DNA from: a virus
Lineage: Duplodnaviria; Heunggongvirae; Uroviricota; Caudoviricetes
Virus record (IMG/VR): IMGVR_UViG_2870490042_000003
Reading direction: 5' to 3' (one strand)
Length of the DNA: 42,699 bases
Shown here one piece after another: positions 1 to 38,208 of this stretch (its first letter is position 1; every line of letters begins with the position of its first letter). A program made the position numbers and the translations under genes. The notes beneath the pieces are model-generated. The model had not been told where the DNA came from. It saw only the letters and a list, made by a program, of their open reading frames with translations, and did no database searches.

Positions 1-327
1 TCATTTTTTCCAGAGGCGGTCGAACTCCGCCTTCGCAAAATAAGCGGAAGCCTGGCGAAGGATATCGTTACTGCGGCGCAGTTCACGATTTTCACGTTCC
101 AGCTCTTTCAGACGCTGACGTTCAGCGGTGGTGAGCCCTCCATCACCGCCCCCGGTATCCCGCTCATGCTGGCGAACCCAGACACGCAGAGTCTCCGGCG
201 TACAGCCAATCTTTGGAGCAATGGAACAAATTGTCGCCCATTGTGAGTCATATTCGCTCTGACTTTCCAGAACCATACGGACTGCCCGTTGACGGACTTC
301 GGGGGAAAAACGAGTATTTTTAGTCAT
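1..327 (-). CDS. IS629 transposase OrfA (HTH protein)
   Basis: 108-aa translation identical to the ORF at 1082-1408; IS3-family OrfA-like. Confidence 0.85.
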
Positions 328-381
328 CCTGTTTACCTCTTTCTCAGGAAGTTTAGTCTCCAGGATTCCCGGGGCGGTTCA
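1..381 (-). mobile_element. IS629 (IS3 family), partial copy in inverted orientation, truncated by the window start
   Basis: Terminal repeat CCCGGGGCGGTTCA ends at 381 and is the reverse complement of the left end of the full copy at 1028; bases 1-327 encode an OrfA identical to that of the full copy. Confidence 0.85.
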
Positions 382-549
382 GTTCGTAGGCCACTCAATA
401 TCAGGTGCAGTTGATGTATCAACACGGTTCAGCAACACCCGATACTTTTTCCAGACTTCCAGCAACAAGGTTTCTTCCTCCGTTGCGATTTCCAGCTCAA
501 CAACAGTCTGAACGTACCGGGAACAGCCTCCTTCAGAGCTTGAAGGATA

Positions 550-1027
550 TTAATGTTCGCTTCCTGTTAACTGCCGGACAAGTGCAACCAGTTCGCTTAC
601 CTGATTTTCCAGAGTGCTGATCCGGGTGCCTGCTGTTGCCAGATTTTGACGTAGCGTTGTGTTTTCCTCTTCCAGCGCGGTAACGCGATCATCTGTTTCA
701 CGGGCGACCTGAACAAGTAAACCCGTCACGGCGGCGTAGTCAACATTAAGATAGCGCGTTTCTTCGCGTAGCTCGTTGCCGTCAACGGTCGGGCCTTGCA
801 ACTCTTCACCGTAATGGATGAATGAACCAACGGCCTCCGGGATGGCCTCTTCAACTTCCTGGGCTATAACCCCGGCGCAATGTGCCCCATTCTCCTTGAG
901 CGTGTACGTGTATCCATTAATTTTGCGGATTGCGTCAGTCGCGTTATCGATAATCTCGATATTTTCTTTCAGTCTGCGGTCTGATGACTGATTCAGTGTG
1001 GTGCAGTTAACACTTCCGTTTACAGTA
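550..1027 (-). pseudogene. Displaced 3' fragment of the side tail fibre gene (C-terminal intramolecular chaperone / peptidase S74-like domain)
   Basis: The - frame is open from the IS629 boundary at 1027 to a stop at 550; translation ...NGSVNCTTLNQSSDRRLKENIEIIDNATDAIRKINGYTYTLKENGAHCAGVIAQEVE... carries the SDxxLKxNI autoproteolysis-type motif; it is in frame with the tail fibre ORF upstream once IS629 and one GTA copy are removed. Confidence 0.7.
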
Positions 1028-1081
1028 TGAACCGCCCCGGGAATCCTGGAGACTAAACTTCCTGAGAAAGAGGTAAACAGG

Positions 1082-1408
1082 ATGACTAAAAATACTCGTT
1101 TTTCCCCCGAAGTCCGTCAACGGGCAGTCCGTATGGTTCTGGAAAGTCAGAGCGAATATGACTCACAATGGGCGACAATTTGTTCCATTGCTCCAAAGAT
1201 TGGCTGTACGCCGGAGACTCTGCGTGTCTGGGTTCGCCAGCATGAGCGGGATACCGGGGGCGGTGATGGAGGGCTCACCACCGCTGAACGTCAGCGTCTG
1301 AAAGAGCTGGAACGTGAAAATCGTGAACTGCGCCGCAGTAACGATATCCTTCGCCAGGCTTCCGCTTATTTTGCGAAGGCGGAGTTCGACCGCCTCTGGA
1401 AAAAATGA
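1082..1408 (+). CDS. IS629 transposase OrfA
   Basis: ATG at 1082 preceded by GAGAAAGAGG; 108 aa; ends in an A6 run (1400-1405, TGGAAAAAATGATG), the likely -1 frameshift site giving OrfAB. Confidence 0.85.
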
Positions 1409-2295
1409 TGCCACTGCTGGATAAGCTGCGTGAGCAGTACGGGGTCGGACCGCTATGCAGCGAACTGCATATTGCCCCGTCAACGTATTACCACTGTCAG
1501 CAACAGCGACATCATCCGGATAAACGCAGTGCCCGTGCGCAGCGCGATGACTGGCTGAAGAAAGAGATACAGCGCGTATACGATGAAAATCACAAGGTAT
1601 ACGGTGTGCGTAAAGTCTGGCGTCAGTTGTTACGGGAAGGTATCAGAGTGGCCAGATGCACTGTGGCACGTCTCATGGCGGTTATGGGACTTGCCGGTGT
1701 TCTCCGGGGTAAAAAGGTCCGTACGACCATCAGCCGGAAAGCCGTTGCCGCAGGCGACCGCGTAAACCGTCAGTTCGTGGCAGAACGACCTGACCAGCTG
1801 TGGGTGGCTGATTTTACTTACGTCAGCACATGGCGGGGCTTCGTCTATGTGGCGTTCATCATTGATGTGTTTGCCGGATACATCGTGGGGTGGCGGGTCT
1901 CATCGTCCATGGAAACGACATTCGTGCTGGATGCACTGGAGCAGGCGTTATGGGCCCGTCGACCGTCCGGCACGGTCCATCACAGTGATAAAGGTTCTCA
2001 GTATGTATCGCTGGCCTACACACAGCGGCTTAAGGAAGCCGGATTACTGGCATCAACAGGAAGTACAGGCGACTCGTATGACAACGCGATGGCGGAGAGC
2101 ATCAATGGTCTTTACAAAGCGGAGGTAATACACCGTAAGAGCTGGAAAAACCGTGCAGAAGTGGAACTGGCCACACTCACGTGGGTGGACTGGTATAACA
2201 ATCGACGATTGCTGGAAAGGCTGGGCCATACTCCTCCGGCAGAAGCAGAAAAAGCTTATTATGCTTCCATCGGAAACGATGATCTGGCAGCCTGA
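1405..2295 (+). CDS. IS629 transposase OrfB (DDE integrase-type catalytic domain)
   Basis: 296-aa ORF in -1 frame relative to orfA; IS3-family transposase-like sequence. Confidence 0.85.
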
Positions 2296-2297
2296 GT

Positions 2298-5200
2298 TCA
2301 CAGATAAAACACTCTCCAGGAAACCCGGGGCGGTTCAGTAAGGTTTTGCCCGTCTGTTGTTTTTTGCGCATAAAACAGATACGCAGCAGACGTTCCAACC
2401 TCAAAAACGTTTTGTCGAGTACTGGAACCCCACACCCTGATACTAACTGGTAGTTCTGAATTACCTGAATTAAGTAAAGCAAAACGATTGCCAGTCCCTG
2501 TTTGTTTTCTAATTACTAAATCGGCAGTTGAGTTAACCTCATCTTTGTTGATGGTTAGCGCCTGCGCTGTAGCACCGTTAACAGTGCCACTTAGTAGTTG
2601 AACCGCTCCATCATCGCCATTTAACAGCACTTGAGCGCTGCTTCTGTGGTTTTTCAGGAACAACATTTTGCCTGTGCTTTCTGATGTGCCTACCGACCAC
2701 GCCGAATTGGTTCCAGTGCTATCAACACCGCGCACAGCACAATTCATACTACTGTAATCTGACGTACTCCCCAGCACATCAACACGCCCGCCGCCTAATT
2801 TTGATGGAGTCGTCGAGGTTAACGACCTGACGGTTACATCCTGATTCCATCCTGAAACAACTACCTGACTCCACTCCGTCCAGTTTCCATTGACAACAAA
2901 GCGAACGTATATGCGTTTTGTGTCGCTGCCAATCAGCGTTTGCATGATCGCATAATCTGAACCCGTAGTTTTACGAGTAGATTCTACACGTAGCAAAAAG
3001 TTACCGCTTACGCCGTCAGGCTTATTGGTAATATATGCACCACCTGCAACAGTTTTGCATTGATAGTATTTAACAGATCCAGCCACTGTATTAGCAATGA
3101 TCAAGTCGTTTAAATCAATAGTCTTGTTGTCAATGGTTTCCGGCTCGATAGATCCCGCCATACCTGCGTTAAATGTGGCAAAGTCAGAAAAGGTTGTTTT
3201 ACCGCCTACCGTCACCCCGCTATCGAGTTTTGCTTGTGTGATTACTTTGCTGTTTTTTGTGTGGTCAGAATAACTACCAAAATACAAATCACCGTCACCA
3301 GCTATACCCAGGTATTTTTGATCAACATCATCAACCTTAAACCCAATGGACAAGTTTTTAATTGTGTTGTTGCTCGTTAAAACCAAAGGCGTATGCTGAG
3401 ATCCTTTGATGCTTACCGTAGTGTTATCGGAACTGGTGCTTGTGTTTGCAAATTCTGCGGTGGCTGCGCTGATTTTGTAAGTTATTTTTAGATTGCGGGC
3501 CTCAACCCTCCCGTCGTGGCGAACAATAAAATCACCACTTGATTCACCTTTTGTGTTTTTCGCCCTGATGTGGATTTCGCCAAGTGATTCGTTGTTTTCA
3601 GGCGACCAAACAACGCCGCGCTCGCTTCCGTCGTTGTTCATGAACCACAGATGAGCGGTTCCTTTTGCTGATTTTAGCCTGATAGATGGCGTTTCTTTCA
3701 ATATATCAAGATCACCAGACATAACATCGCCGGATTTTTTCACCTGCGCATCGTTAGTTACGTTGCCAAGTCCAACATCCGATTTCGACGGCTTGTTTGC
3801 CGAGCCGTATAGCTCATTGATGCTAAAAGTCCCGTTGTTAAGCCGGGCATCGTTGCCGGCATAGATCTTAATCTTCGCGGTTGAGTAGTCGATATTGATC
3901 GCTGACCACGTATCGCCGCACCGCGAGAATATACCAGAACCGTGGCTATAAATGGTCGCCGTGCTTCCGGTCGGCTTATCACCGCGCCAGAAATGACCAC
4001 CTTTGTCACGCAGAGCTTTTAAGATCTCTACATCGCTCATCTTGCCGTTTGTTGATATCCCGCTACCGCCAAGACCGAAAGCGCCTGTAAGCATAGCATT
4101 AGAAAGACCCAAATCTGCTTTAGTCGGCTTGTTTAACTGGTCGTAAATCCTTACAACGGGGCTTTCAACATATCCAGAAGGCGCGGCGGTTTGCTTAACA
4201 AATCCGTCTGGAATGTATAATTCCGGGCGTGCCGTCTGCGCCAGCACCGCAACCTTTGCGCCGTTGATAAATGCGCGCTGGAAGGCCCAAACCTCAATAA
4301 AGCCGTCACCTTTAACCAGGCCGTAACGCATCTGGTTGTTATCGGTCAGCCCGGTTGACCCTAAGCGGCGTATACTCAGATGACGAGAAACATTATCCGC
4401 ACTAAGCAAAGAAGGCAGACCGCGCGCCGAGATCTCGATAAAGTCAATGTTTCCGTAAGGGGAGCCGTAGTTACCGGCATTAGTAACCATTAGCGTTACA
4501 TGGCAATTGCCGCTTCCGGGATCGGAAAGTTTCGCGATCTTTATGTAAAAAGACTCATTACCAGTAACAACGGGCCAATCGTATTGCGTCATCGGGCTGA
4601 CGAGTCCCCCGACCTTGTCGAGATATTCTTTCGCCTTGTTCTCTGACGCTTTAGCGTTGGTTTCGCTGACCTTTGCTGCTGCCTCACTATTTTTCGCGTT
4701 GGTTTCTGATTTTTTGGCTGCTGTCGCGGAGTTTGCCGATGCAGTTTGTGAGTCTGCTGCCGCCTGTGCGCTGTTATCCGCATTCGTCTCAGACGTTTTT
4801 GCGGCCTTCGCGGAATTTCCTGCTGCCGTTGCCGAGGAAGCTGCACTGCCGGCGCTCGAGGCAGCGCTCGTTTCTGATGATTTTGCCGCCACTTTTGAAG
4901 CCGACGCATCCCGGGCTGAGGTGGCAGCTTCTGACGCTTTCGTGGTCGCGGTGGATGCAGATGTGGCCGCAGATTTTTGTGATGCTGCGGCATTCATTTC
5001 CGACGTTTTCGCTGCACCGGCACTGGTGGCTGCCGCGCTTTTTGAAGACTCTGCGGCGGCAGCACTTTTTGATGCTTCAGTGGCCTTTGTTGATGCCGTT
5101 CCTGCGCTGGAAGACGCTGACTGAGCCGACGACGCGGCCTGTCCGGCTGACGTGCTGGCTGCACGTGCTGAGCCTGCAGCATCAGTCGCACGGGTTGCCG

Positions 5201-5621
5201 CCTCACGGGCTGATGTGCTGGCATCGCTGGCTGACTTCTTCGCGGCTGCCGTGTTCTGTGCCACCGCGGACGCGTTACGCGCCACCTCTTCCACCATCAG
5301 TTCAAAACGGCGCAGTGCCTCAGGACGGGCATCATCCTCCGTCATGGCACCGAGAAAATCATTCAGCGTACCGGGTCGGGAATCTTCATACACGGTGATG
5401 GTCCCGGCATGTGACGGCGGGAATCCTTCCACCAACAGAATAACGCTGTACTGACCGTACTCAACGTCCATGCTGTAACGCCCGGCTTCATCCGGATTTT
5501 CTGAGGCCAGCGTGTTCACCACCACCGTGGTACTGTTACGTTTTGCTTTCAGCTGGATTGTGCAGTTCTGTACCGGTTTTCCTGTGCCGTCTTTCAGTAC
5601 ACCTGAAATCTTTACTGCCAT
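2298..5621 (-). CDS. stf: Side tail fibre protein (lambda Stf-like N-terminus, Ala/Ser-rich central repeats); 3' end interrupted by IS629, last 13 codons and stop are IS-derived
   Basis: ATG at 5621 (the track's M1 is GTG at 5627); N-terminus MAVKISGVLKDGTGKPVQNCTIQLKA matches lambda Stf from memory; the ORF runs 40 bp into the IS629 right end. Confidence 0.8.
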   Translation of the reverse strand: MAVKISGVLKDGTGKPVQNCTIQLKAKRNSTTVVVNTLASENPDEAGRYSMDVEYGQYSVILLVEGFPPSHAGTITVYEDSRPGTLNDFLGAMTEDDARPEALRRFELMVEEVARNASAVAQNTAAAKKSASDASTSAREAATRATDAAGSARAASTSAGQAASSAQSASSSAGTASTKATEASKSAAAAESSKSAAATSAGAAKTSEMNAAASQKSAATSASTATTKASEAATSARDASASKVAAKSSETSAASSAGSAASSATAAGNSAKAAKTSETNADNSAQAAADSQTASANSATAAKKSETNAKNSEAAAKVSETNAKASENKAKEYLDKVGGLVSPMTQYDWPVVTGNESFYIKIAKLSDPGSGNCHVTLMVTNAGNYGSPYGNIDFIEISARGLPSLLSADNVSRHLSIRRLGSTGLTDNNQMRYGLVKGDGFIEVWAFQRAFINGAKVAVLAQTARPELYIPDGFVKQTAAPSGYVESPVVRIYDQLNKPTKADLGLSNAMLTGAFGLGGSGISTNGKMSDVEILKALRDKGGHFWRGDKPTGSTATIYSHGSGIFSRCGDTWSAINIDYSTAKIKIYAGNDARLNNGTFSINELYGSANKPSKSDVGLGNVTNDAQVKKSGDVMSGDLDILKETPSIRLKSAKGTAHLWFMNNDGSERGVVWSPENNESLGEIHIRAKNTKGESSGDFIVRHDGRVEARNLKITYKISAATAEFANTSTSSDNTTVSIKGSQHTPLVLTSNNTIKNLSIGFKVDDVDQKYLGIAGDGDLYFGSYSDHTKNSKVITQAKLDSGVTVGGKTTFSDFATFNAGMAGSIEPETIDNKTIDLNDLIIANTVAGSVKYYQCKTVAGGAYITNKPDGVSGNFLLRVESTRKTTGSDYAIMQTLIGSDTKRIYVRFVVNGNWTEWSQVVVSGWNQDVTVRSLTSTTPSKLGGGRVDVLGSTSDYSSMNCAVRGVDSTGTNSAWSVGTSESTGKMLFLKNHRSSAQVLLNGDDGAVQLLSGTVNGATAQALTINKDEVNSTADLVIRKQTGTGNRFALLNSGNSELPVSIRVWGSSTRQNVFEVGTSAAYLFYAQKTTDGQNLTEPPRVSWRVFYL

Positions 5622-5630
5622 ATTCACCCC

Positions 5631-5659
5631 ACAAAAAAGCCCGCCTGAACCGGCGGGCT
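5631..5659 (-). terminator. Intrinsic terminator-like hairpin between lom and stf
   Basis: On the - strand AGCCCGCC-GGTTCA-GGCGGGCT followed by TTTTTT, then the stf SD and start. Confidence 0.5.
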
Positions 5660-5685
5660 GTCATAACACTGTGTTACCTGGCTAA

Positions 5686-6285
5686 TCAGAATTTATAACC
5701 GACACCCACGATGAAACCGTCAGTGCGCCAGTCGCCACTGCCGGAACCTTCATAAGCGACATCAACGGCCACGGATTCGGTCGGGTTAAACTGCACGCCA
5801 GCCCCCCACGCCAGAGACGTGTTGCTGTGGCGACCGTCATCACTTCCGGTCAGCACGTCGTGCGTTTTCCCCTTGTTGTCAGTTACGCGGAGATAATCCC
5901 CGGAGAAAGTCGACACACGGCTGTAAGCCATACCCGCCATCGCATACGCGCTGAACCATTCATTCACGCGCACAGACGGCCCCGCCATCACGCTGAACCA
6001 GCGGTTACGCACGGAATCTTCATGCCAGCGGGTATCGCTGTAATGCGTTTTTTGCTCATCTTTGGCATTGGCATAACTGAATGACGTCACCAGCCCCAGC
6101 GTGTCCGTAAATTCATAACGGTATTTCACGTTAATCCCGTTCAGATTATCGCTGCCGGGGACGTTCGTACGGGCATGAAGATACCCTGCGCTCAGTGTGG
6201 ACTGGTGTTCAGACGCCCATGCAGGCGTACCTGATACGGCCAGACAGATGGCTGCGGACAAAATAGCTGCATAAACTTTACGCAT
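5686..6285 (-). CDS. lom: Lom outer membrane protein (Ail/Lom family beta-barrel)
   Basis: 199 aa; N-terminal signal peptide; C-terminus ...YEGSGSGDWRTDGFIVGVGYKF as in lambda Lom. Confidence 0.85.
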   Translation of the reverse strand: MRKVYAAILSAAICLAVSGTPAWASEHQSTLSAGYLHARTNVPGSDNLNGINVKYRYEFTDTLGLVTSFSYANAKDEQKTHYSDTRWHEDSVRNRWFSVMAGPSVRVNEWFSAYAMAGMAYSRVSTFSGDYLRVTDNKGKTHDVLTGSDDGRHSNTSLAWGAGVQFNPTESVAVDVAYEGSGSGDWRTDGFIVGVGYKF

Positions 6286-6352: not shown

Positions 6353-9300
6353 TCAGCTAATCGTGATGCCTGCAGTGGCTTTCTTCATCACCACAACCAG
6401 CAAATCGCTGATACTGGCTGTGGGATACCAGTTATTTACCAGCCATGCTGACACCGAAAACTCCAGTGTCATGTGACCGTGACCGGCAGGCATATCAATA
6501 ACACCACTGTAAATCAGCGTATTATCCAGCGCGGTACGGTTATAAATTTCAGCACCGTTTTTCCGTACTATCAGGCGGCATGACGAATAAATATCGTTAT
6601 TCTCCCGCTCATGTTTAGCGCCGCTGAATGCCACCGCCGGAATAACAATCTGCCGGTCAAACGGCTGATCGTCATAAACCCTGACGGTGATGGTCCCTGA
6701 TGGCCACCGTTCCGGTGCACGGGAGTCCCGGGGGAAAGCTTTGCCCACTGTTTTAACGAGATCGCCTTCAATCTGGTTGGCGGACAGTTTTCCCAGAACC
6801 CGACAGTTCTCGTTAATCGTGACGTTGTTGAGCGTCCCGGCGTTCGCATTCACGTTACCGCTGATATCGGCATTTTTCGCCGTCAGCCGCCCGTCCGGTG
6901 TCAGGGAAAATACCGGAGGATTACCGCCGCTGGTAATGGTGGGAGCCGTCAGGCGTTTCAGGAACACTTCGTTCATGAATATCTGATCGCCCTGCCCAAC
7001 AAACATCGGCTTTGTGTTGCCATTCGCAGGATTAATCATCGCAATCCTGTCTGCCGCCAGCAGCACCTGACTCTGCATGCCGTCAGGGGTGTTCTCAATA
7101 CCGGCACCAATACCCGCGATATAAAGGCGTCCGTCCTGCATCTGCTGCAGCTTCACAGCCCACATGCTGTTCAGGTTATTATTTGTATCAACCTGAACCT
7201 TCTGTATCTGCTGAATTGCCGCACTCTGGTCTTCCAGTTTCTTATTGACGGTCTGCGTGATTTCATTGCTGACATCCGTAATGGACGTCCTGATTTCAGC
7301 CAGGTCAGGCGCAAGCTGACCGTTATCAATCTGCGTCCACAGCTCCTGAGCCAGATGGGTTTTCCCTATCTCGCCTTTGAAAAAATCCAGATAACCGGAT
7401 GCATCATCACTCGGCTGACCAACAGCCTCCACGAATGCCGATTTGCCAACGGTGTTCACACTGCGGATATAAAAGTAATAATCATGGCCCGGTTTGATAT
7501 TGATACTGGCGGCTATCCAGTACAGCGCCGTGCCAAGATAGCGTGCTGTGGTTTCAACCTGCCTGATATCGGTAATCCGCTTTTCCGAGAACCAGAACTC
7601 AAACTGTACCGTCGGATCATAAACCGCAAGATGCGGCGTGGCGGTTATCTGAAAATAGCCCGGCGTCAGCTCAATCCGCGACGGCGCTGCCGGTGCGGCA
7701 ATCCGGAACGATACCGACGCCGGATCGCCCTGCTGCCCCCACGCATTTACTGCCCGGACTGTCAGCCTGTAGTTCCCCAGCGCCAGTTGTGTGAAGCGGT
7801 AAGTGGTTTCCGTCGTCCGGGCCGTGCTGACCAGCCACTCACTGCCGTCATCCGCTGTTACGGTCAGACGGAGCAGGAAGCTCACGCCCTTCACCACCTT
7901 CGGCGTGTCCCAGCGCGCCAGCACCTGATATTCCCCGCTGTCTGCGGTGACTTCGGCAGTCAGGTGCTGCACCGCTGGCGGCGTGACACCATTCACCGTG
8001 CCGCTCTGGTCGCCGTCAAAGTGCGCCCCGTTATCCACGATGGCTTCTTTTTCCGGTACATGCTGCACGGCGGTGATGGCATACGTGCCGTCATCGTTCT
8101 CACGGATACTCACACAGCGGAACAGGCGCTGGCGCAGCGTCGGCAACTTCAGCCCCCACACGCTGTATTCTGCAACACCATCAGGAACCCGGCTCACTTT
8201 CACCTTCACGCCGTCGGTGACGGACTGGACCTCCACGCTGACCGGATTACCCTGACCGTCAACCAGGCTTATCAGCGTGGTACCGGAGGATGGCAGCGTG
8301 ATTTCACGGTCGAGCGTCAGCGTCCGGGTCTGGCTGTTCACCGCCAGCACGCGCCCGCCGGTGCTGATACCCGCATAGTCATCATCGCAGATTTCAATGA
8401 CATCCCCCGGTACATGGCGAAGCCCTTCCGCACCCACGCTGAAGTCCACGGTCTGCGTTTCCAGCAGTTCCGTTTTAATCAGCCACAGCCCGGCGCGGTG
8501 CGCCTGCCCCCGGCTGGTACAGCCAAAGGCATCCATCTTCGTGACGTTACGACCGTAACGGGCAATGGCCTGCGTATCTTCAACAAGCTCTGTCGCCGTC
8601 TCCCAGCCGTTGTCCGGGTCAATCCAGTTCACCTCAACGGCATTATGGCGGTCTTTCAGGGCGCTGAAGCTGTAGCGGAACGGCGCGCCATCATCCGGCA
8701 TCACCACATTACTGCGGTTATAGGTCCACACCTTATCTGATGGTCGGTCCTGCACGAACGTCAGCGTCTGCCCGTTCCATACCGGCATACAGCGCATCGC
8801 CGAGCAGAAATCACTGAGCACATCCCACGCCTTGCGCTGTGTGGTCAGGTACGCATTACAGGTGATGCGCGGCTCCGTGCCGCCAAAGCCGTCCGGCACC
8901 GACTGGTCGCAGTACTGGCCGATGACATACAGCGCCCATTTATCCACATCCGCCGCACCAAGACGTTTCCCCATGCCGTAGCGCGGATGGGTCAGCATAT
9001 CCCACAGACACCAGGCCATGTTGTTGCTGTATGCCGGTTTAAACGTTCCGTCCCAGATACCGCTGTATTGCCGCGTCTGCGGGTTATAGTTCGACGGCAC
9101 CTGCAGAATGCGCCCGCGCAGATGATAATTACGGCTCACCTGCTGGCTGCCGAACTGCTCCGAATCCACCTGTACGCCGACCAGTGCCGTGTTCGGGTAG
9201 CACTGTTTCACATCGATGATTTCGGTGTATGACGACCAGAGCGTTTTGTTCTGCAGCTGGTCTGTGGTGCTGTCCGGCGTCATCCTGCGCATCCGGATAT

Positions 9301-9832
9301 TAAACGGGCGCGGCGGCAGGTTATCCACCACCACCGAGGCCAGATACTGCGAGGTGGTTTTGCCCTTAATGGTGATGTCTTTTTCCGTCACCCAGCCACC
9401 ATTACGCTGTATCTGAACCAGCAGGCGAACTTCCGACGGATTCCGGTCCCCCTTTGAGGTGGTTTCCACCAGTGCCTGCACACCGAAGGTAAAGCGCAGA
9501 CGGTCGATGTTTGCAGACGTGATGGTGCGGGTGATCGGCGTGTCATATTTCACTTCCGTACCCAGCACCGTCTCGGAGCCGGAGGATTCAAACCCCTCCG
9601 GCGGTGTCTGCTCCTGCTCACCGGCACGGAACACCACCGTGACACCGGAGATGTTGGTATTCCCCTCAGTGTCCAGCACCGGCGTACTGTTCAGCAGCAC
9701 GCTTTTTAATCCATCCACCGGACCTTCAACCGGCCCTTCACTGATGGCGTCTATCACGCTCAGCATCTGGGATGATTTCAGGTTGTCCTTCGCTTCGCGC
9801 GGGGTATGCCCCTTACTGCTGCCTTTACCCAT
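6353..9832 (-). CDS. J: Tail tip / host specificity protein J
   Basis: 1159 aa; lambda J-like sequence throughout; ATG at 9832. Confidence 0.9.
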
Positions 9833-27977: not shown

Positions 27978-28012
27978 GGAGTTTACTCACATCTGACAAA
28001 ATCAATATAAAC

Positions 28013-28216
28013 AGCCCCTCCGGAGAGGGGCTGGAGAGTGGCGCTATGTGCCATTGCATGGTGCCGGGTGCCTCCCGGTGAATTCAGTACCAGCACCTGA
28101 ATCCGCGATTATCCCATATACCTACTCGCTGATTACCCCTCCGCACAGGGGGATTCACCATGCGAAATTTTTTAACAAACTTCCCGCCGGCCAGACAATA
28201 ATCGCCAGCCTGAATT
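28013..28216. repeat. Copy 1 of a diverged ~205-bp direct repeat beginning with GC-rich hairpin AGCCCCTCCGGAGAGGGGCT
   Basis: Shared blocks with copy 2: AGCCCCTCCGGAGAGGGGCTG, CATGGTGCC..GCCTCCCGGT.AATTCAG, GGGGGATTCACCATGCGA, TTTTTAACAAA, GCCAGACAAT.ATC. Confidence 0.7.
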
Positions 28217-28475
28217 ATGAGCAACGTGGCATTTTACGGGAAAACTGTTTTCTGCAGTAAAAAGGCCCGCCGGAGCGAGCCTGGAAGGATAGCGGTCATG
28301 TGATGCCGGTTTCCCGGTAACTCAGCATCGGTATCTGAGTCAACGTTTTCTCTACTGGGTCATTTCCGATACGTTCCGCCTTCCGGCAGACTTTCATCAC
28401 GTCAGAAAATATAGCACCCTGAGTAACAGGACAGTACTCAGAATTCAGGAAACTGTGACACATCCTGCACAGAAA

Positions 28476-28685
28476 AGCCCCTCCGGAGAGGGGCTGAAGT
28501 ATAGCCTAATTTCTGTCTGTCGCATGGTGCCAGGGGCCTCCCGGTAAATTCAGCCTGTCTACTGAATTTGCATGTTCTCTGGATCATACACTTTGCCAGA
28601 TGCCCCGCCGCTGAGGGGGATTCACCATGCGATGTAATTTTTAACAAATTCTCCGGCAGCCAGACAATCATCAAGCTGTGGAATT
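28476..28685. repeat. Copy 2 of the diverged ~205-bp direct repeat
   Basis: Same conserved blocks as copy 1; the hairpin read on the - strand is followed by TTTTCTGTG. Confidence 0.7.
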
Positions 28686-29010: not shown

Positions 29011-29086
29011 TGGTGGCCCTTGCTGGATTTGAACCAGCGACCTGGCGATTATGAGTCGCTCGCTCTCACCACTGAGCTAAAGGGCC
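29011..29086 (-). tRNA. tRNA with CAU anticodon (tRNA-Ile2 ileX/ileZ-like, or Met), encoded CCA
   Basis: 76 nt folded by hand into a canonical cloverleaf: acceptor GGCCCTT/AAGGGCC, D-stem GCTC/GAGC, anticodon loop CT-CAT-AA, T-stem GCTGG/CCAGC, T-loop TTCAAAT, discriminator A, CCA. Confidence 0.85.
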
Positions 29087-31934: not shown

Positions 31935-32090
31935 TTACTCCTCAGGTTCGTAAGCTGTGAAGACAGCGACCTCCGTCTGGCCGGTTCGGATTCGTACCTC
32001 GCAGAGGTCTTTCCTCGTTACCAGTGCCGTCACAATGACGGTTAAACAGATGACGATCAGGGCGATTAACATCGCCTTTTGCTGCTTCAT
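31935..32090 (-). CDS. hok: Hok/Gef-family type I toxin (HokD/RelF-like)
   Basis: 51 aa MKQQKAMLIALIVICLTVIVTALVTRKDLCEVRIRTGQTEVAVFTAYEPEE; an in-frame upstream ATG at 32147 would give a 70-aa form. Confidence 0.85.
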   Translation of the reverse strand: MKQQKAMLIALIVICLTVIVTALVTRKDLCEVRIRTGQTEVAVFTAYEPEE

Positions 32091-32349
32091 AGCCTGCTTC
32101 TCCTTGCCTTTCGGCACGTAAGAGGCTAACCTAGATTTGCCGTTCATAGATTGAGCCTCAGATTAATGTTAAGCGTCTTGCAGGACGCGTAATGTTAACT
32201 GGGGCTTTTCTCTATCTGCCTTTTGGTGTTCATGCCTGAGACAGATAGCCTCAAGCACCCGCAGTCATTCTACTTAACTAAGATTTCCCCGCAAACCGTT
32301 TTTGTCCGGCACAGTAAATATCCAACTAAACCAATGGCGTTCGCTGTAT

Positions 32350-37801: not shown

Positions 37802-38208
37802 TAGATAACCAACGAAGCTAAGGTTGGTAATTAAGGAGTTCTCCACGGGTGAGGTGGAGTGCGTGCGCCGGACACGGGTGAGCATCCGGCACTGACAGTT
37901 TACTGAAAGGATATTTCCCTGAAAAGTCAGACCATAACGCGAAAGCGCACGGCGAGGTAGCTGGTTCATAGATAGCCTGTCGTTAAATTTTCGTCGACCG
38001 TGCGCTTCCGGTTGTGGCAATCCGCGAAATGGCGCGGCGGTAAGTATGGCGGGGTTATTCCTTCCCCCGTTGAGGACACCGGGTTGTCAGGTTGACCATA
38101 CGCTTAAGTGACAACCCCACTGCAACGCCCTCTGTTATCAATTTTCTGGTGACGTTTGGCGGTATCAGTTTTACTCCGTGACTGCTCTGCCGCCCTTTTT
38201 AAAGTGAA

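What the first reader, a model, noticed from the sequence alone, without database searches (positions are those of the whole stretch)
550..5621. IS629 has split the side tail fibre gene, and the two halves are still in frame
The tail fibre ORF (start 5621) runs uninterrupted into the IS629 right end at 2337 and stops 40 bp inside the element. On the other side of the IS, the - strand frame is open from 1027 to 550 and encodes a C-terminal domain with an SDRRLKENIE motif, typical of the self-cleaving intramolecular chaperone domains that fibre trimerisation depends on. The IS is flanked by a 3-bp GTA duplication (1025-1027, 2338-2340). Removing the IS and one GTA rejoins the two parts in frame into a fibre of about 1,256 aa. 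This is therefore a recent insertion that probably leaves the prophage unable to make a functional side tail fibre, although the rest of the morphogenetic operon looks intact.
Basis: partly seen in the sequence, partly recalled or inferred. Interest (0 to 1): 0.6.

Follow-up and report, generated by a model that had tools for sequence, protein, structure and literature searches.

The report
IS629 insertion splitting a prophage tail-fibre gene
A common jumping gene (IS629) has cleanly split the side tail fibre gene of a lambda-like prophage and cut off the small C-terminal domain the fibre needs to fold. This is an ordinary gene-inactivating insertion, inherited by a whole E. coli lineage (ST167/ST617) rather than arising recently in one strain.

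Summary
IS629 (1310 bp) lies at 1028-2337 with a 3-bp GTA duplication. The N-terminal fibre ORF (ATG 5621) stops 40 bp inside the IS, and the minus-strand frame 1027-550 encodes a Peptidase_S74 chaperone domain. Deleting 1028-2340 gives one ORF of 1252 aa, not about 1256.

That ORF is identical to an uninterrupted ORF in E. coli AJ6, whose DNA around the site is 100% identical. It also aligns without gaps, 1-1252, at 87% identity with the side tail fibre of the cultured phage Ayreon.

The IS sits 13 codons before the catalytic Ser of SDRRLK. The orphaned fragment has no usable start codon upstream of that motif. The fibre is therefore very probably unable to trimerise.

Two corrections:
- The insertion is not a private recent event. 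The exact junction is in 176 of 5426 complete E. coli genomes, from both ST167 and ST617.
- A second, inverted IS629 lies 646 bp away at window 1-381. It has its own GTT duplication and is found in only 45 genomes, so I infer it arrived later.

By analogy with lambda PaPa, loss of the side fibre need not stop particle production. This is textbook pseudogenisation and of low interest.

The parts
1028..2337 (+). Complete IS629 (IS3 family), 1310 bp. orfA is at 1082-1408 and orfB at 1405-2295. The ALIL frameshift pseudoknot is at 1363-1479.
   Evidence: Ends and ORFs. It is 99.5% identical to elements annotated 'IS3 family IS629' in Stx phage records, and 100% identical to a copy in the phage 21 int record. 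Rfam ALIL scores 120 bits. PGAP labels the same copy 'IS3-like element IS629 family transposase' in strain 5CRE51.
1025..1027 (.). Left copy of the 3-bp target-site duplication, GTA.
   Evidence: There is a single GTA at the empty site in AJ6.
2338..2340 (.). Right copy of the 3-bp target-site duplication, GTA.
2298..5621 (-). 5' fragment of the side tail fibre gene. It encodes 1095 native residues plus 12 IS-encoded residues (EPPRVSWRVFYL) and then a stop. The N-terminal PF08400 domain covers residues 1-134.
   Evidence: RefSeq annotates it as WP_223349244.1.
550..1027 (-). Orphaned 3' fragment of the side tail fibre gene, residues 1096-1252. It holds the Peptidase_S74 intramolecular chaperone domain, with S1109 and K1114 in the SDRRLK motif, followed by a C-terminal helical tail.
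   Evidence: Pfam PF13884, residues 1109-1160, 60.1 bits against a cutoff of 22. PDB 6F45 (a long tail fibre distal subunit) aligns with the SSDRR[L/I]K motif. There is no ATG, GTG or TTG between the upstream stop at 1117-1119 and position 801.
382..504 (-). 3' remnant of a tail fibre assembly (tfa) gene downstream of the fibre gene. It is already a pseudogene in the IS-free allele.
   Evidence: The translation reads ...[26 protein letters not shown]. PGAP annotates it as 'tail fiber assembly protein, incomplete, missing N-terminus' in SCEC020023 and in AJ6.
1..381 (-). Left end (IRL plus orfA) of a second IS629 copy, complete in the genome, in inverted orientation and cut by the window edge. 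Its target-site duplication is GTT.
   Evidence: Its 381 bp are identical to the first copy. The full 1310-bp copy, the GTT duplication and the empty site in AJ6 are shown.

Best explanation
A single IS629 transposition, which made the usual 3-bp duplication, landed in codon 1096 of a 1252-codon lambda-type side tail fibre gene (stf). The gene belongs to a lambdoid prophage integrated between potB and potC.

The insertion separates the fibre shaft and tip (residues 1-1095) from the C-terminal S74 intramolecular chaperone, which begins 13 residues further on. The upstream fragment is translated into a 1107-aa protein that ends with 12 IS-encoded residues. The downstream fragment has no start codon upstream of the catalytic motif and is not made.

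S74 domains act in cis to nucleate trimerisation of the preceding domain and then cleave themselves off at the Ser of the S-D-x-x-x-K motif. Without that domain the truncated protein is expected not to form a functional trimeric fibre (inferred, not shown).

The allele arose once in an ancestor of the E. coli ST167/ST617 lineage and has been inherited vertically. A second IS629 inserted 646 bp away later, within ST617. The J-dependent tail tip is untouched. By analogy with lambda PaPa, particle formation and J-mediated infection need not be abolished (inferred).
For: Shown:
- IS boundaries, target-site duplication and the in-frame join.
- An IS-free allele with 100% identical DNA and an identical 1252-aa protein in AJ6. 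Apart from the two IS copies, 12.3 kb of surrounding DNA is identical.
- A gapless 1-1252 alignment at 87.2% with the side tail fibre of the cultured phage Ayreon, and 77.5% identity to the mEp460 fibre over the last ~325 residues (98% of a 332-aa C-terminal query).
- Pfam PF08400 at residues 1-134 and Peptidase_S74 at residues 1109-1160.
- S1109 and K1114 have the same +5 spacing as Ser1264 and Lys1269 of T5 pb1 (PMC4690869).
- No canonical start codon ahead of the S74 motif in the orphaned fragment.
- The exact IS/stf junction is in 176 of 5426 genomes, including strains listed as ST167 and as ST617 in PMC6392093.
- The second IS junction is in 45 genomes. Of the ten listed, seven are among the strains PMC6392093 names as ST617, including SCEC020023.
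- Structural genes from terS to J are annotated as intact.

From established knowledge:
- The S74 domain of endosialidases is required for folding and trimerisation (Muhlenhoff 2003; Schwarzer 2007; Schulz 2010).
- Lambda PaPa carries an stf frameshift and is viable (Hendrix and Duda 1992).
Against: Nothing found here contradicts the explanation.

No expression, folding or adsorption data exist for this fibre. I inferred loss of function from other S74 proteins. I have not excluded that the 1107-aa fragment retains partial function, or trimerises through its long N-terminal and central regions.

Vertical inheritance is inferred from the identical junction at the same chromosomal site. I built no genome phylogeny, and I checked sequence types only for the strains named in PMC6392093.
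Confidence: 0.9

Rival explanations
1. The stretch 550-1027 is a separate downstream gene, such as a tail fibre assembly protein or a stand-alone chaperone. The apparent in-frame join would then be a coincidence.
For: A tfa-like remnant does lie just downstream at 382-504. A 3-bp duplication and a matching frame could each arise by chance.
Against: The empty site in AJ6 has a single GTA and one continuous 1254-codon ORF. Ayreon Stf is exactly 1252 aa and aligns without gaps across the junction. The fragment has no start codon before its S74 motif.
Confidence: 0.01
2. The IS in the fibre gene is an assembly artefact, or a very recent strain-private event.
For: IS copies often cause misassembly. 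The two IS copies are identical, and the flanks show no decay.
Against: The identical junction is found in 176 independently assembled complete genomes. It has secondary derivatives. One carries a group II intron inside the IS, and one is an internally deleted IS at the same site. A draft contig, ON470612.1, breaks at exactly this junction.
Confidence: 0.02
3. The truncated fibre is still functional. The 1095 native residues include nearly all of the mature, post-cleavage fibre, so the insertion could alter the fibre rather than abolish it.
For: Only 13 residues of the predicted mature protein are lost. The 3.3-kb fragment is still an open frame with no further mutations.
Against: In characterised S74 proteins the chaperone is needed in cis for folding of the preceding domain (PMC4690869 and earlier endosialidase work, recalled from memory). 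The absence of decay is equally explained by the young age of the lineage, about 30 years for the O89b lineages according to PMC6392093.
Confidence: 0.07

Closest known systems
IS629 insertions in lambdoid prophages of E. coli O157:H7 and other Shiga-toxin-producing E. coli
   Same: The same element at 99.5% identity. The same habit of landing in prophage genes. IS629 copies are widespread in prophage (Stx phage) records.
   Different: The host here is a phylogroup-A multidrug-resistant lineage (ST167/ST617), not an enterohaemorrhagic strain. The target is the 3' end of the side tail fibre gene. I found no paper describing this particular insertion.
Lambda PaPa stf frameshift (Hendrix and Duda 1992, from memory)
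   Same: A lambda-type side tail fibre gene, with the PF08400 N-terminus, located after J and lom, is inactivated while the J tail tip remains intact.
   Different: The lesion here is an IS insertion and not a 1-bp deletion. This fibre carries a built-in S74 chaperone and does not depend on a separate Tfa.
S74 intramolecular-chaperone fibres and spikes: K1F endosialidase, T5 pb1, and the fibre in PDB 6F45
   Same: The Peptidase_S74 domain, the S-D-x-x-x-K Ser/Lys dyad and a following helical region.
   Different: The domains upstream of the chaperone are unrelated to those of pb1 or the endosialidase. Part of this region resembles T4 gp34 repeats.
Side tail fibres of the cultured lambdoid phages Ayreon and mEp460
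   Same: Ayreon Stf has the same length (1252 aa) and an end-to-end gapless alignment at 87.2%. The mEp460 fibre is 77.5% identical over the last ~325 residues.
   Different: Those genes are uninterrupted.

Membership tests
IS629 (IS3 family, IS3 group) | Length of about 1310 bp with terminal inverted repeats beginning TGAACCGCCCCGGG. | tested here: met
   The element is 1310 bp, with imperfect terminal inverted repeats whose first 14 bases match.
IS629 (IS3 family, IS3 group) | Two overlapping ORFs, orfA and orfB, joined by a programmed -1 frameshift with a pseudoknot. | tested here: met
   orfA is at 1082-1408 and orfB at 1405-2295. Rfam ALIL pseudoknot at 1363-1479 scores 120 bits. PGAP annotates a 'programmed frameshift'.
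IS629 (IS3 family, IS3 group) | At least 95% nucleotide identity to elements curated as IS629. | tested here: met
   It is 99.5% identical over the full length to features annotated 'insertion sequence: IS3 family IS629' in LC567824 and LC567828. ISfinder itself was not available.
IS629 (IS3 family, IS3 group) | A 3-bp (sometimes 4-bp) target-site duplication. | tested here: met
   GTA for this copy and GTT for the second copy. Each is single at the empty site in AJ6.
Peptidase_S74 intramolecular chaperone domain | A match to Pfam PF13884 above the gathering score. | tested here: met
   60.1 bits against a cutoff of 22, E 2.5e-16, residues 1109-1160 of the joined protein.
Peptidase_S74 intramolecular chaperone domain | A catalytic Ser and a Lys five residues later. 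| tested here: met
   S1109-D-R-R-L-K1114. T5 pb1 has the same spacing, Ser1264/Lys1269. The SSDRR[L/I]K motif is conserved in PDB 6F45.
Peptidase_S74 intramolecular chaperone domain | Autoproteolytic release after trimer folding, and a requirement for folding. | not testable with these tools
   This needs expression of the intact allele and of the S1109A and truncated variants.
Lambda-type side tail fibre (Stf) | The N-terminal 'prophage tail fibre N-terminal' domain and a gene position after J and lom. | tested here: met
   PF08400 at residues 1-134, 238.8 bits. The gene order J, lom, stf is seen, and the same order is in phage Ayreon.

The most novel reading that the evidence does not exclude
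The stf::IS629 allele may not be a neutral hitchhiker. It could have been fixed in the ancestor of the globally spread ST167/ST617 carbapenem-resistant lineage because disabling the side fibre helped to domesticate a cargo-carrying prophage (iss/bor, iraM, dicB, hok/sok). For example, it could limit productive spread or change the host range of released particles. As a by-product, the allele would be a simple PCR marker for the lineage.
Probability: 0.08. Interest if true: 0.35.

Novelty: already known. Interest (0 to 1): 0.12.

Why it matters
The finding matters little beyond bookkeeping. It is a clean textbook example of an IS insertion making a pseudogene of a prophage gene.

It has three practical uses:
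- The junction at 2337/2338 is a ready-made marker shared by ST167 and ST617 genomes. The second junction at 381/382 marks a subset of ST617.
- RefSeq annotates the truncated 1107-aa fragment as a normal protein, and splits the intact AJ6 gene into two features. Fibre-based host-range predictions drawn from these records would be misled.
- Anyone inducing this prophage should expect particles without side fibres.

Tried and rejected
- NCBIfam scan of the joined fibre and of the tfa remnant: no family matched, so no finer domain map was obtained.
- The 100% hit to 'Escherichia phage vB_EcoS-640R1' at first looked like evidence that the IS-bearing prophage yields viable phage. The record is a draft bacterial contig with about 13 kb of host genes that simply ends at the IS junction. 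It comes from an in-silico prophage survey. I rejected it as evidence.
- Literature searches for this specific insertion found nothing relevant. The IS629 and tail fibre co-mentions were unrelated.
- I considered whether recombination between the two inverted IS629 copies had inverted the 646-bp segment. I rejected this because each copy keeps its own matching duplication and the segment is colinear with AJ6.
- I considered an IS629-flanked composite transposon carrying the chaperone module. There is no evidence that the 646-bp segment occurs elsewhere flanked by IS629, and I did not pursue it.
- One paper search failed on a term that was too short.
- I judged the large protein searches, structure prediction and contig scans unnecessary and did not use them.
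Full report
**Observation**

The element at 1028-2337 is exactly 1310 bp. It starts TGAACCGCCCCGGG and ends CCCGGGGCGGTTCA. It carries orfA (1082-1408) and an overlapping orfB (1405-2295). Rfam places the IS3-type ALIL frameshift pseudoknot at 1363-1479, at 120 bits.

The element is 99.5% identical over its full length to features annotated 'IS3 family IS629' in Stx phage records. PGAP names the same copy 'IS3-like element IS629 family transposase' in strain 5CRE51.

GTA flanks the element on both sides, at 1025-1027 and 2338-2340.

On the minus strand the fibre ORF runs from ATG 5621 and stops at 2298-2300, 40 bp inside the IS. The frame on the other side of the IS is open from 1027 to the stop at 550-552. 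It reads TVNGSVNCTTLNQSSDRRLKENIE....

Deleting 1028-2340 gives one ORF of 1252 aa from the ATG, or 1254 aa from an upstream GTG.

**Is the join real?**

Yes.

- At the insertion point AJ6 reads ...TTTACAGTAAGG... with a single GTA.
- AJ6 has one uninterrupted 1254-codon ORF, and its product is identical to the joined protein.
- Apart from the two IS copies, 12.3 kb around the site is identical between AJ6 and the window's closest relative, SCEC020023.

Independently, the side tail fibre of the cultured lambdoid phage Ayreon is also 1252 aa. It aligns with the joined protein from residue 1 to residue 1252 without a gap, at 87.2% identity. Over the last ~325 residues, the mEp460 fibre is 77.5% identical. 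Other genomes carry single CDSs named 'prophage tail fiber N-terminal domain and S74 family endopeptidase-containing protein'.

The stretch 550-1027 is therefore the fibre's own C-terminus and not a separate gene. The tail fibre assembly remnant lies further downstream, at about 382-504. It is already a pseudogene in the IS-free allele.

**What the insertion does**

Pfam places the prophage tail fibre N-terminal domain at residues 1-134 and Peptidase_S74 at residues 1109-1160 of the joined protein.

The S74 motif is S1109-D-R-R-L-K1114. This is the same Ser/Lys(+5) arrangement as Ser1264/Lys1269 of T5 pb1. [quoted passage not shown] The nearest solved relative of this stretch is PDB 6F45 (a long tail fibre distal subunit), which conserves SSDRR[I/L]K.

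The IS sits after residue 1095, 13 codons before the catalytic Ser. The upstream fragment therefore encodes almost the whole mature fibre plus 12 IS-derived residues, with no chaperone.

The downstream fragment's frame is open into the IS as far as a stop at 1117-1119. It contains no ATG, GTG or TTG until position 801, well past the S74 motif, so the chaperone cannot be made separately.

Loss of a functional trimeric fibre is an inference from what is known of S74 domains. It was not shown here.

**Context**

The window is 99.993% identical to the ST617 strain SCEC020023. The differences are two substitutions and one intergenic indel, all outside the structural genes.

The window is a prophage of about 45 kb between potB and potC, with lambda-like tail genes (J, lom, tape measure) and HK97-family head genes. 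Every gene from the small terminase to J is annotated as intact.

By analogy with lambda PaPa, which lacks side fibres through an stf frameshift and is viable (Hendrix and Duda 1992, from memory), particle production and J-mediated infection need not be lost.

**How recent?**

Neither fragment differs by a single base from the AJ6 allele, so the event is young in mutational terms. It is not private to this strain, however.

| Query | Genomes out of 5426 |
|---|---|
| 120-bp probe across the IS/stf junction | 176 |
| 120-bp probe across the uninterrupted site, at least 80% coverage | 643 |
| Junction of the second IS629 | 45 |

Carriers of the IS/stf junction include strains that PMC6392093 lists as ST167 (M217, AR435, 51008369SK1, CREC-629, Y5, Sanji). 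They also include strains it lists as ST617 (AR_0114, the MRSN series, 5CRE51, SCEC020023). That paper dates the O89b-carrying lineages to about 30 years before 2019.

The simplest reading is one insertion in a common ancestor followed by vertical inheritance. I did not build a phylogeny, so this remains an inference.

**Second IS**

The window begins inside another IS629 (1-381), in the opposite orientation and identical in sequence. In the genome it is a complete 1310-bp copy with its own GTT duplication, and its site is empty in AJ6.

Its junction occurs in only 45 genomes. Of the ten listed, seven are among the strains PMC6392093 names as ST617. It is therefore a later, nested event.

The two copies bracket 646 bp that hold the orphaned chaperone fragment and the tfa remnant. 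Each copy keeps its own matching duplication, and the segment is colinear with AJ6, so no IS-mediated inversion has occurred.

**Derivatives and traps**

- In 5CRE51 the fibre-gene IS has itself been invaded by a group II intron.
- In 11899A_LBHALD the same site holds a 262-bp internally deleted IS, which could be a real deletion or an assembly collapse.
- The GenBank 'phage' vB_EcoS-640R1 gave a 100% hit ending exactly at the insertion point. It is a draft bacterial contig that breaks at the IS, not an isolated virus.

**Verdict**

The finding is correct and well read. It describes an ordinary IS-mediated pseudogenisation. The mechanism, the element, the fibre type and the chaperone domain are all known, and RefSeq already annotates the IS and the partial fibre fragments. 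I found no paper on this specific allele. Its only added value is as a lineage marker and as an annotation caveat.

Noticed in passing
window 1-381 (full copy at L001 4691-6000): A second IS629 lies in inverted orientation 646 bp from the first, with its own GTT duplication. It is inserted at the end of the tfa remnant and in a small hypothetical ORF. It is present in 45 genomes, against 176 for the fibre-gene copy, so I infer it is a later event within ST617.
   Followed up: yes
L009 (5CRE51) about 7500-9765: In strain 5CRE51 the IS629 copy inside the fibre gene has been invaded by a group II intron (ltrA). This is a nested mobile-element insertion. A similar spacing in strain 675SK2 suggests the same.
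   Followed up: partly
L004 (11899A_LBHALD) 5647-5908: The same insertion site holds only a 262-bp IS629 remnant, made of 132 bp of the left end and 130 bp of the right end. That genome lacks the second IS. It could be a real internal deletion or an assembly collapse.
   Followed up: partly
GenBank ON470612.1 (L007): The record named Escherichia phage vB_EcoS-640R1 is a draft bacterial contig. It holds about 13 kb of host genes (mfd to potC) plus this prophage, and it ends at the IS629 junction. It is not a cultured phage genome.
   Followed up: yes
window 2298-5621; L002 6169-9933: RefSeq annotation is inconsistent. The IS-truncated 1107-aa fragment is given a normal protein accession (WP_223349244.1) and is not flagged as a pseudogene. 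The fully intact AJ6 ORF is split into a 267-aa CDS plus an N-terminal pseudogene.
   Followed up: yes
window 386-502, and L001 3644-3760 (outside the window): There are two 3' remnants of tail fibre assembly genes, 88.9% identical over 117 bp. One lies just after the fibre gene and one lies beyond a SAM-dependent methyltransferase. They look like scars of past exchanges of the fibre-tip and tfa module for an S74-type tip that needs no Tfa.
   Followed up: no
window 28003-28191, 28467-28660, 32085-32260, 38144-38195: Rfam finds two copies of the sRNA STnc100, a sok antitoxin RNA next to hokD, and DicF next to dicB. The prophage also carries iss/bor and iraM as cargo.
   Followed up: no
window 29011-29086 (-): A prophage tRNA with anticodon CAT is called Met by ARAGORN but tRNA-Ile by PGAP, presumably as the lysidine-modified Ile2 type.
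   Followed up: no
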